Assembly: GCA_964016885.1 (NCBI GenBank)
Contig: OZ024740.1
Span: 219,728,001-219,792,000, forward strand
Reading direction: 5' to 3'
From: Eledone cirrhosa
Lineage: Eukaryota
Length of the DNA: 64,000 bases
Part shown: piece by piece, positions 23,200-24,600 of the stretch
Layout of the letters: every line of letters starts with the position of its first letter
Position numbering within the stretch: the stretch's first letter is position 1
Notes under the pieces: generated by a model
Seen by the model: the letters and a program-made list of their open reading frames with translations, nothing else
The model's database searches: none
Told to the model about the DNA's origin: nothing
Program-made: the position numbers and the translations under genes

Positions 23200-23860
23200 T
23201 AAACGGAAAAAATGAAACAAAATTTAATTTCCCACTCTTAGTACGGCTGTTACTTAAATGTAAGTATGTACACGTACATACATATATGTATACAGACGTA
23301 CAGTAGTATGTATATATATATACATACATACACACACATATATATATACATATGGATTCACCGAACATTTATTATAATGCTCGGTGTGTTTGTAAACAAA
23401 CATCCCGTATTAAGCCGTAGTGTCTAGCAACCATCGTTGCTCATTTGTTCAACACTGACAAAGGAACGCTGTACTAGTTTCAAGCTTATTAGCTATCGTC
23501 AGCAACGTATACCTTCCTGCCAGATTGTTGAATGTCTGAAAGTATATACTTTCCTTATGCATATTAACGGCTGAGTAGCCCAATTTGCATATCGAGTGGG
23601 TTAATCGGCCGGGTGCACCGAAAACGATAAAAGGAAAAAATGAAACAAAATTTCATTTCCCACTCTTAGTACGGCTGTTACTTAAATATAAGTATGTATA
23701 CGTACATACATATATGTATACAGACGTACAGTAGTTTGTAAATAGATATACATACATGCACACATATATATATGTACATATATATATGTGTGCATGTATG
23801 TATATATATATATACATACTACTATACGTCTGTATACATATATGTATGTACGTGTACATA
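23200..23860 (-). mobile_element. HHR repeat (retrozyme-like), diverged subfamily, ~1.4 units
   Basis: HHR 23466-23507 minus CGTTG-CTGACGA-TAGCT AATA AGCTT-GAAAC-TA-GTA-CAGCG; unit start repeated at ~23205 and ~23632. Confidence 0.8.
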
Positions 23861-23865
23861 CTTAC

Positions 23866-23911
<46 letters not shown>

Positions 23912-23914
<3 letters not shown>

Positions 23915-24600
23915 TGAAACAAAATGAAAACGAAATTTCATTTCTCACTCTTAGTATGGCACTTACTTAAATGTAAGTATGCATGTATACGTACATACAT
24001 ATATGTATACAGACGTACAGTAGCATGCACATATATATATATATATACATATATACATACATATGCATACAGGTACACATACATATATGCACGTATCAGT
24101 TTAGCGGCGCTAACGTCGCTTTGTTCGTTTGTAAACAAACTGAACAGCCTGAATTTATGCCATACGGTGTTAAGGCAACCACGTCACCTTTTTGTTCAAC
24201 ACTGACACAGGAACGATGTACTAGTTTCAAGCTTGTTAGCTATCATCAGCACCGTTTACCCATCTGCCAGATAGTTGAACGTTCGAAAGTATATACTTTC
24301 CTTATGAAAATTAACGGCTGAGCAGCCTAATTTGCATATTGAGTGAGTTAAATCGGTCAGGCATACCGAAAACGATAAATTGAAACAAAATGAAAACGAA
24401 ATTTCATTTCTCACTCTTAGTATGTTCAGTTTGTTTACAAACGAACAAAGCGACGTTAGCGCCGCTAAACTGATACGTGCATATATGTATGTGTACCTGT
24501 ATGCATATGTATGTATATATGTATATATATATATATATATGTGCATGCTACTGTACGTCTGTATACATATATGTATGTACGTATACATGCATACTTACAT
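23912..24600 (-). mobile_element. HHR repeat (retrozyme-like), ~1.1 units plus inverted partial unit
   Basis: Near-identical to 62566-63503; HHR at 24212-24257; inversion from ~24423. Confidence 0.85.

What the first reader, a model, noticed from the sequence alone, without database searches (positions are those of the whole stretch)
23200..24600. Two subfamilies of the HHR unit side by side show compensatory change in stem I
Seen: the 23466-23507 HHR has stem I CGUUG/CAGCG, core CUGACGA and loop AAUA, while the 24212-24257 HHR has CGGUG/CAUCG, CUGAUGA and AACA. A U-G pair became G-U through changes on both strands, and the other changes fall at free position 7 and in loop II, while the rest of the unit is visibly diverged. 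Inference: selection maintains the ribozyme fold; the two subfamilies inserted next to each other across one (TA)n tract.
Basis: partly seen in the sequence, partly recalled or inferred. Interest (0 to 1): 0.75.

Follow-up and report, generated by a model that had tools for sequence, protein, structure and literature searches.

The report
Two adjacent ribozyme-carrying jumping repeats
These are two neighbouring copies of a very abundant non-coding repeat of a known kind that carries a predicted self-cutting hammerhead RNA; the base-pair swap between them is real but a single event, and the better sign that the fold is likely kept by selection comes from more distant families in the same genome.

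Summary
Confirmed: both hammerhead motifs lie on the minus strand, and the third pair of helix I is U-G in one (A) and G-U in the other (B). They belong to separate insertions (428- and 466-bp units) of a family with 25,855 exact core matches in the genome, nested with a third element in one (TA)n tract. The insertions show Penelope-type ends: fixed 3' end on TA, partial tandem, inverted 5' piece, tail. The hammerhead is not significantly more conserved than the rest (38/42 vs 324/378, p=0.49), and the U-G state arose once among 71 sampled insertions that also hold A-U, U-U and C-G. Stronger support: more distant families keep the core, rewrite helices I and II with pairing intact (11 of 17 pairs changed on both sides) and keep helix III palindromic. 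Two more double changes lie outside the ribozyme. Best reading: a non-LTR retrozyme, likely cutting as a dimer and copied by a Penelope-like enzyme. Cleavage, expression and the driving enzyme are untested. Known kind; the scan already noted this system on other DNA of this genome.

The parts
23172..23200 (.). (TA)n-like tract joined to the 3' end of insertion A
   Evidence: sequence
23199..23626 (-). Insertion A, one full 428-bp unit (36% GC); its last about 59 bases (23199-23257) are the tail that the inverted arm lacks
23627..23781 (-). Insertion A, partial second unit (93.5% identical to 23199-23353)
23770..23867 (+). Insertion A, inverted 5'-truncated piece (93.9% identical to 23353-23258)
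23458..23518 (-). Hammerhead A: type I, 6-bp helix I with U-G at pair 3 (23505/23469), internal loop 1, U-U plus 4-bp helix II, palindromic helix III (23478-23473); predicted cut between 23472 and 23471
   Evidence: cut site inferred from the hammerhead consensus
23445..23535 (-). Long outer helix extending helix I of A
23583..23590 (-). Conserved 8-mer (octamer-like; name recalled) about 88 bases upstream of the core; candidate promoter part
   Evidence: function inferred
23231..23600 (-). Predicted 7-bp helix 23600-23594 with 23237-23231; pair 23599/23232 is C-G in 9 and U-A in 23 of 33 insertions with both arms (1 unpaired)
23242..23419 (-). Predicted 7-bp helix 23419-23413 with 23242-23248; two pairs change on both sides among 22 complete units (C-G 13 / U-A 9; A-U 15 / U-A 6 / unpaired 1)
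23868..23910 (.). (TA)n tract between A and B
   Evidence: sequence
23911..24376 (-). Insertion B, one full 466-bp unit (36% GC); tail about 57 bases (23911-23967)
24205..24265 (-). Hammerhead B: same fold, G-U at pair 3 of helix I (24252/24216); predicted cut between 24219 and 24218
   Evidence: cut site inferred
24330..24337 (-). Same conserved 8-mer in B
24377..24424 (-). Insertion B, partial second unit (24375-24424 is 100% identical to 23909-23958)
24423..24603 (+). Insertion B, inverted 5'-truncated piece (98.9% identical to 24146-23968)
24604..24620 (.). (TA)n tract between B and element C
   Evidence: sequence
24619..24830 (+). Element C: unrelated third insertion, inverted arm 24619-24683 plus the 3' end (24684-24830) of a longer element; holds the likely 3' half of another hammerhead
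62566..63504 (+). Second insertion of subfamily B in this window: two 466-bp units head to tail, two hammerheads, TA on both sides, 4 substitutions from copy B

Best explanation
A and B are separate insertions of two subfamilies of one high-copy, non-coding repeat (428- and 466-bp units) that carries a type I hammerhead fold and likely moves as a non-LTR retrozyme: multi-unit transcripts would be cut by paired hammerheads into unit-length RNAs, likely closed into circles and copied into (TA)n tracts by the enzyme of a Penelope-like element. Shown: copy number, unit structure, hammerhead consensus and pairing, fixed 3' end on TA, partial tandems, inverted 5' piece with a missing tail, near-identical units within arrays, intact Hydra-type Penelope-like ORFs with TA ends in the same genome. 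Inferred: cleavage; need for a dimer (helix III is too short to close alone and is palindromic in four different sequences); circular template (the DNA 3' end lies about 270-310 bases past the cut site and copies run through the cut site intact); which enzyme does the copying. The U-G/G-U swap is one step in the history of the family, most likely A-U to G-U to U-U to U-G. Selection acts on the source copies that cut and fold well enough to spread, and covers helices outside the ribozyme too. B landed later in the TA tract beside the older A because all these elements aim at TA.
For: 25,855 exact core matches, control 0. Helix sizes fit the canonical metazoan type I hammerhead of PMC4209133 (helix I 6 bp, helix II 4 bp, helix III 1-2 bp with palindromic loop). 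Family-level covariation on six rows (A, B, H, E, an A-U and a U-U copy): 11 of 17 pairs changed on both sides, 94.1% of cells paired, shuffles 4.2 +/- 1.5, slid controls 0-2. Family E was found by likeness to the core alone, yet its rewritten helices pair and its outer helix has 16 bp (z -4.65). H is homologous to A/B along the unit (67-78% in local matches) with rewritten helices I and II. Helix III six-mers differ among A/B/H, E, I and J and are all palindromes. Closing helix III within one copy costs 5.4 kcal/mol; the six-mer duplex gives -4.8. 3' ends: of 258 anchor hits (each site hit twice), 155 run into the next unit, 93 end in TA (most 20-32 bases past the anchor), 10 other. 127 of 136 anchors keep more than 30 bases of homology 5' of the cut site, 1 stops at it (loci were chosen for an intact core). 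Units within an array differ by 0-3 substitutions in 9 of 11 arrays. Insertion anatomy matches PMC8557442. A 713-aa ORF family, 96-98% identical copies, many without stops, has the RWR, DKT and CxCx5C motifs of the Hydra clade and ends on TA.
Against: No excess conservation in the A/B pair (p=0.49) and none left after removing the selected core columns in 22 units (p=0.24). In run X1, 2 of 17 variable places fall in the 31-base core, about the share expected from its length, though both are free positions. Position 10.1-11.1 is U-U in 117 of 118 copies, not the usual G-C; PMC7229834 reports weak monomer cleavage for an axolotl motif with that mismatch, and 8 of 9 Xenopus elements tested in 10.64898/2026.07.22.740005 did not cleave. 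Each of the two copies has a single hammerhead. Rfam gives no match at gathering score, only Hammerhead_HH9 at 18.5 bits, E 0.26 on B. No autonomous element sharing sequence with A/B was found: the Hydra-type family shares nothing significant, nor do 15 other 3' regions examined. Uniform arrays could also arise by duplication in DNA; two arrays are not uniform (L058 alternates two units, L062 differs by 22). The structure was drawn by hand from these sequences and H, G, I, J were found with a model holding it, so leans towards it.
Confidence: 0.8

Rival explanations
1. The swap is neutral hitch-hiking: the third pair of helix I is weakly constrained, two independent substitutions were fixed in one source lineage, and only the catalytic core matters.
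For: Single origin of the U-G clade (34 of 34 tips, support 0.86; 2 parsimony steps on the 3' side). U-U copies exist (2 of 118). From U-U, two of three possible changes on the 3' side restore a pair, so restoration is not improbable. No excess conservation in the pair.
Against: 68 of 71 insertions have a standard pair at this position in their first copy, in four pair types; families H (U-A) and E (G-U) pair there too; unpaired states stay rare while paired clades are large.
Confidence: 0.25
2. A and B are 5'-truncated ends (pseudo-LTRs) of an autonomous Penelope-like element not sampled here, rather than a self-standing non-coding element.
For: Penelope-like elements carry type I hammerheads in their terminal repeats and leave many truncated copies; insertion anatomy is the same.
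Against: Full units repeat head to tail with nothing between (L037, L031, window 62566-63504); no A/B copy abutting a Penelope-like ORF was seen in the loci read; the hammerhead is of the canonical kind, not the minimal kind with long helix II typical of these elements.
Confidence: 0.12
3. The unit is a satellite-like repeat amplified in DNA (unequal exchange, slippage in TA), and the hammerhead is a dead relic.
For: Some arrays have 7-11 hammerheads; L058 alternates two units, as a DNA duplication would give.
Against: Copies are dispersed (45 of 71 sampled insertions hold one hammerhead), share one fixed 3' end on TA, carry inverted 5' pieces, and young copies differ by 3-5 bases between distant loci.
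Confidence: 0.05

Closest known systems
Metazoan non-LTR retrozymes (Cervera and de la Pena 2020, PMC7229834, sections 14 and 17 and passages read; Li, Clavereau and Pollet 2026, 10.64898/2026.07.22.740005, parts 1-3 of 5 read)
   Same: Short low-GC non-coding unit with one type I hammerhead, dispersed and in tandems, thousands of copies, highly self-paired, two or more related ribozyme subfamilies per genome (mussel, axolotl), proposed Penelope-like driver.
   Different: Units (428-466 bp) are at or above the upper end of the reported range; strict (TA)n targeting, inverted 5' pieces and a tail are not described for retrozymes in the passages read; RNA and cleavage untested here; no parent element found.
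Axolotl HHR_Amex1 and HHR_Amex2 (PMC7229834, passages read)
   Same: Amex1 has a one-pair helix III with a palindromic tetraloop; Amex2 has a U-U mismatch at the base of helix II; both cut better as dimers.
   Different: The motif here combines both weak features in one ribozyme and has a long outer extension of helix I.
Penelope-like elements, Hydra clade and general insertion anatomy (Craig et al. 2021, PMC8557442, section 11 and passages read)
   Same: Partial tandems, inverted 5'-truncated copy, tail at one end, (TA)n targets, canonical hammerheads.
   Different: No ORF; tail 57-59 bases against 30-40 described; no sequence shared with the Hydra-type family examined.
Minimal hammerheads of Penelope-like elements (Cervera and de la Pena 2014, PMC4209133, parts 1-2 of 4 read)
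   Same: Type I, palindromic helix III region, proposed dimeric cleavage.
   Different: Here helix I is 6 bp with a defined loop 1 and helix II is short, as in canonical motifs; the minimal kind has 4-5 bp and 7-8 bp.

Membership tests
Canonical metazoan type I hammerhead | Conserved catalytic core in type I order | tested here: met
   (each core position kept in 114-118 of 118 copies; sample partly selected for the core)
Canonical metazoan type I hammerhead | Helix I 6 bp, helix II 4 bp, helix III 1-2 bp with small palindromic loop (PMC4209133) | tested here: met
Canonical metazoan type I hammerhead | Loop 1 - loop 2 contact through conserved loop bases | tested here: inconclusive
   Loop bases are kept across A, B, H, E while the helices change; the contact itself was not modelled
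Canonical metazoan type I hammerhead | G10.1-C11.1 pair (typical, not required: U-U in axolotl HHR_Amex2) | tested here: not met
   U-U in 117 of 118 copies; G-C in related family H
Canonical metazoan type I hammerhead | Site-specific self-cleavage | not testable with these tools
   needs in vitro transcription
Rfam hammerhead families | Score at or above the gathering threshold | tested here: not met
   0 matches in the window; Hammerhead_HH9 18.5 bits against 52 on B; not filed under an Rfam family
Non-LTR retrozyme | Short repeat unit (150-450 bp) of low GC with one type I hammerhead, in dispersed and tandem copies | tested here: met
   428 and 466 bp, 36% GC; arrays of up to 7 same-strand hammerheads in this family
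Non-LTR retrozyme | [quoted passage not shown] | tested here: met
   Met by the family (window 62566-63504, L037, L031); the two copies of this finding are single-hammerhead insertions
Non-LTR retrozyme | No protein-coding capacity | tested here: met
   5 ORFs of 66-112 aa, mostly read through TA-like sequence; not searched against protein families
Non-LTR retrozyme | No LTR, primer-binding site or polypurine tract; long target-site duplication when present | tested here: inconclusive
   No LTR pair in the anatomy; primer site not searched; duplication unreadable inside TA
Non-LTR retrozyme | Expressed as linear and circular unit-length RNA | not testable with these tools
   needs northern blot or RT-PCR on tissue RNA
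Penelope-type insertion (non-autonomous) | Partial tandem, inverted 5'-truncated copy, tail at one end, microsatellite target | tested here: met
Penelope-type insertion (non-autonomous) | Sequence shared with the terminal repeat of an autonomous element | tested here: inconclusive
   None with the Hydra-type family or 15 other 3' regions; only about 1 Mb of 3 Gb was read
Autonomous Penelope-like element | ORF with reverse transcriptase and GIY-YIG endonuclease | tested here: not met
   not filed here

The most novel reading that the evidence does not exclude
Helix I works as a self-recognition code between subfamilies. Because helix III can only close between two hammerheads, helix I must form between the 5' arm of one unit and the 3' arm of the other. 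The U-G/G-U swap leaves each subfamily self-compatible (-5.2 and -5.0 kcal/mol) but gives U-U or G-G in mixed pairs (-1.3 and -3.5), so neighbours such as A and B, 747 bases apart on one strand with the same helix III palindrome, would cut each other poorly. Compensatory swaps in helix I and changes of the palindrome would then isolate selfish RNA lineages from each other inside shared TA tracts.
Probability: 0.2. Interest if true: 0.62.

Novelty: new member of a known kind. Interest (0 to 1): 0.32.

Why it matters
The class is known and two-subfamily patterns are already reported in mussel and axolotl, so the finding itself is modest. Its value is practical: a natural series of variants (A-U, G-U, U-U, U-G, plus families with rewritten helices and four different helix III palindromes) with which the need for dimers, the cost of the U-U base of helix II and cross-cleavage between subfamilies can be tested directly. 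It also shows that a single double change between two repeat copies is weak evidence of selection until the family tree is looked at. Searches for 'hammerhead ribozyme' with 'octopus' and 'retrozyme' with 'cephalopod' listed no paper describing this family; the organism is not given, those terms were my guess, and subscription journals are not searched.

Tried and rejected
DNA searches of the own genome with the B unit and the E unit returned nothing because very common words are skipped; no evidence either way. The own genome does not accept an RNA model, so no genome-wide structure search was made, and no genome-wide count of the pair states was obtained: all pair counts rest on 118 copies in 71 insertions, mostly from the first 21.6 Mb of contig C1 and chosen for an exact core. 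Rows dropped: 14 overlapping loci, and 13 of 131 copies lacking a homologous flank; 49 of 71 insertions had no complete unit. Sequencing runs: no RNA holder listed. Laying contigs: runs X4 and X6 gave no cover; depths are not copy numbers and the two sides of the pair were covered unevenly, so I draw only that both states occur in X1 and X5. Whole-unit count of substitutions in paired against unpaired columns (25 of 226 vs 61 of 192) was set aside: the alignment is poor in the TA-like part and the structure came from the same alignment. I first took the ORF family P0002 for Neptune from memory; its motifs fit Hydra; no tree was built, and Pfam gave no match for it. The ORF next to the L037 array is an unrelated reverse transcriptase separated by TA. 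Idea that U-U copies are A/B chimeras: flanks of L016 and L024 are of the neighbouring older grade, not of B; in L024 the inverted arm has A-U, so that U-U may be a later mutation. Idea that element C is a non-circularly permuted hammerhead (lead, PMC10085705 passages): longer copies look like an ordinary order with a long helix II insert, judged by eye. miRNA matches are hairpin and TA artefacts below threshold. The 8-mer is not enriched in the window as a whole (7 vs 6.46 expected). The paper on the newt satellite 2 promoter was not held; only a citing passage was seen. Supplements of the cited papers were not read and may list related motifs.

Full report
Observation. In copy A the third pair of helix I is U (23505) with G (23469); in copy B it is G (24252) with U (24216). 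Helix I has six pairs, then a small internal loop and a long outer helix; the 106-base regions fold better than shuffles on the minus strand (z -2.55, -2.53) than on the plus strand (-1.11, -0.78). The minimum-energy fold shows helices I and II but not the catalytic junction. Rfam has no match at gathering score in the window and a weak Hammerhead_HH9 match on B (18.5 bits, E 0.26).

Anatomy. Reading the elements in their own direction, the locus is TA, A, TA, B, TA, C, TA. A is one 428-bp unit (23199-23626), a partial second unit (23627-23781) and an inverted 5' piece (23770-23867). B is one 466-bp unit (23911-24376), a partial unit (24377-24424) and an inverted piece (24423-24603). In both, the inverted piece stops 57-59 bases short of the main 3' end, leaving a tail. 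This is the arrangement described for Penelope-like insertions in PMC8557442 (passages), whose tails are 30-40 bases. The internal duplicates of A are 93.5-93.9% identical and those of B 98.9-100%; A differs from its nearest sampled relative by 22 of 424 bases, B by 4 of 460. So B is likely the later arrival (inference). Element C (24619-24830) is unrelated in sequence, very common and has the same inverted-arm-plus-tail form.

Family. The core pattern has 25,855 exact matches in the 3.0-Gb genome and its reversed control none. I fetched 30 loci from that search, 38 further stretches at listed places, 2 beside the window, 40 evenly spaced 10-kb stretches and 45 loci from two other searches. 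After dropping 14 overlapping loci, 131 copies were found, 118 with both flanks homologous, in 71 insertions. 45 insertions hold one hammerhead, 26 hold two to nine, and 15 have hammerheads on both strands. Of 258 anchor hits near the 3' end (each site hit twice), 155 continue into the next unit, 93 end in a TA tract and 10 are other. This fixed DNA end lies about 270 (A) to 310 (B) bases past the predicted cut. Of 136 anchors just 3' of the cut, 127 keep more than 30 bases of homology across it and 1 stops at it (the loci were chosen for an intact core, which favours this result). Nine of 11 arrays with three or more hammerheads (three of the 11 are family E) have units within 0-3 substitutions of each other; L058 alternates two units 14-16 substitutions apart and L062 has two units 22 apart.

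The swap. Over 118 copies the pair is U-G 58, G-U 47, A-U 9, U-U 2, C-G 1, A-G 1; by insertion (first copy) U-G 33, G-U 27, A-U 7, U-U 2, C-G 1, A-G 1. On a tree built with the two positions masked, all U-G and C-G insertions form one clade (34 of 34, support 0.86) and the 3' side needs two steps, one of them the lone A-G copy. The midpoint-rooted tree puts A-U copies deepest, G-U copies in two groups, and both U-U copies in the G-U grade next to the U-G clade. No path of single changes joins U-G and G-U through paired states only, so an unpaired step is needed; the U-U copies fit it, but L024 has A-U in its inverted arm and may be a later mutation. The swap is therefore one event. Position 7 and loop II vary independently of it.

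A and B agree at 38 of 42 bases in the hammerhead and 324 of 378 elsewhere (p=0.49); 55 of 432 windows of 42 columns are as conserved. Among 22 complete units, columns with a shared variant are 11 of 91 in the hammerhead hairpin and 84 of 376 elsewhere (p=0.03), but 9 of 60 without the core columns that my search had selected (p=0.24). In the contigs of run X1, 2 of 17 variable places lie in the core, both at free positions. At this depth of divergence excess conservation is not established.

Better evidence. Family E (310-bp unit; L064, L021, L130) was found by likeness to the core alone; outside the core it aligns to B only in short TA-like stretches, yet helices I and II pair, the loop bases are kept, and a 16-bp outer helix forms (z -4.65). 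Family H (L117, L130) is homologous to A/B along the unit (67-78% in local matches) and has rewritten helices I and II and a G-C at the base of helix II. On six rows (A, B, H, E, one A-U and one U-U copy) 11 of 17 pairs change on both sides and 94.1% of cells pair; shuffles give 4.2 +/- 1.5 and slid structures 0-2. The structure was drawn from these sequences and H was found with a model holding it, so the figure leans upward; the outer helices were mostly outside the model. Further families G, I and K fold into the same long hairpin (z -3.46, -5.13, -1.25). The helix III six-mer is a palindrome in A/B/H, and a different palindrome in E, I and J; one of three I copies has a base change in it, and G, K and F have longer helix III loops instead. 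Outside the ribozyme three pairs in two helices change on both sides within the A/B family, so pairing seems to be kept over the whole RNA.

Mechanism. Shown steps are copy number, anatomy, consensus and pairing. Inferred steps follow. A multi-unit transcript would be cut at each hammerhead. Closing helix III inside one copy costs 5.4 kcal/mol and the six-mer duplex gives -4.8, which fits the dimeric cleavage described in PMC4209133 (parts 1-2 read), PMC7229834 and PMC6765202 (passages). The unit-length RNA would be ligated into a circle by a host ligase (PMC7229834), and a Penelope-like enzyme would nick TA, prime at a fixed internal site and copy round the circle, giving more-than-unit inserts that cross the cut site. 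The genome holds a young candidate class: a 713-aa ORF family, 63 copies scored at 96-100% identity, many without stops, with RWR, DKT and CxCx5C motifs of the Hydra clade (no tree) and 3' ends on TA. It shares no significant sequence with A/B, nor do 15 other 3' regions, so the driver is open. An 8-mer that I recall as the octamer motif lies 88-103 bases upstream of the core in 58 of 71 A/B insertions and in H and I (4 of 5 copies), not in E, F, G, J or K; background is 0.006 per 160 bases. A citing passage says newt satellite 2 uses an snRNA-type promoter with polymerase II (PMC2220036); runs of four to six T in both units argue against polymerase III. This is a lead only.

Most novel reading. 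In a dimer formed through helix III, the core of one unit holds the cut site of the other, so helix I must form between units (pairing logic; the published figure was not seen). Mixed A/B helices then carry U-U (-1.3 kcal/mol) or G-G (-3.5) against -5.2 and -5.0 for like pairs. The swap could thus keep subfamilies from cutting each other where they sit on one strand, as here (747 bases between cut sites). Three same-strand neighbours of different state within 3 kb occur among 9 neighbour pairs sampled. Untested; probability about 0.2.

Comparison and verdict. It works like, and on the testable features is, a metazoan non-LTR retrozyme with a canonical type I hammerhead (PMC7229834; 10.64898/2026.07.22.740005, parts 1-3 of 5 read); cleavage and RNA forms could not be tested. 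Two ribozyme subfamilies per genome are already reported for mussel and axolotl. Earlier notes of this scan describe the same system on other DNA of this genome; they are unchecked and were used as leads only. New member of a known kind, interest 0.32.

Noticed in passing
window 24619-24830; longer copies at window 33469-34180, L075, L067, L056: Element C is the very common truncated 3' end of a longer element. Longer copies show what looks like a hammerhead with a long helix III, an insert of about 60 bases in helix II and, in two of them, U at position 3 with A at position 8; most short copies are cut inside helix II and carry an inverted arm.
   Followed up: partly
L058 (G000:C1:19315054-19316767): Array of five hammerheads whose units alternate between two types 14-16 substitutions apart, as expected from copying round a two-unit circle or from duplication of a dimer.
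   Followed up: partly
window 23583-23590, 24330-24337; L117, L130, L119: An octamer-like 8-mer is kept 88-103 bases upstream of the core in families A, B, H and I, followed by a TATA-like stretch; possible internal promoter.
   Followed up: partly
L047:137-2272 and L086-L115: Young Penelope-like family with intact 713-aa ORF and Hydra-clade motifs, TA-targeted, missed by Pfam. Its 3' end has, by eye, a hammerhead-like arrangement with an altered core base, which the RNA model did not report.
   Followed up: partly
L059:6265-6331 and 6684-6748: Two diverged hammerhead-like motifs, with sequence related to family E nearby, with U at position 3 and A at position 8, the core covariation mentioned in PMC4209133.
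   Followed up: no
window 6577-6620 (minus) and 6196-6260 (plus): Two more hammerhead-like motifs of other families: a minimal type with relatives in L051, L069, L061, and a decayed copy of family J.
   Followed up: partly
window 34277-35791 (plus) and 22206-22638 (minus): Broken Penelope-like ORF fragments, 36-55% identical to P0002.
   Followed up: no
window 39061-39128 and 61886-61953; 1572-1644; 45870-45917 and 18900-18949: Further repeated motifs with the two hammerhead core boxes, not examined.
   Followed up: no
L130 (G000:C3:190000001-190010000): Families E (11 units), B and H sit within 5 kb, another nest of several ribozyme repeats.
   Followed up: no
L034:245-2812: 856-residue open frame with reverse transcriptase and GIY-YIG matches, a second kind of Penelope-like element; its 3' end was not specifically compared with A/B.
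   Followed up: no
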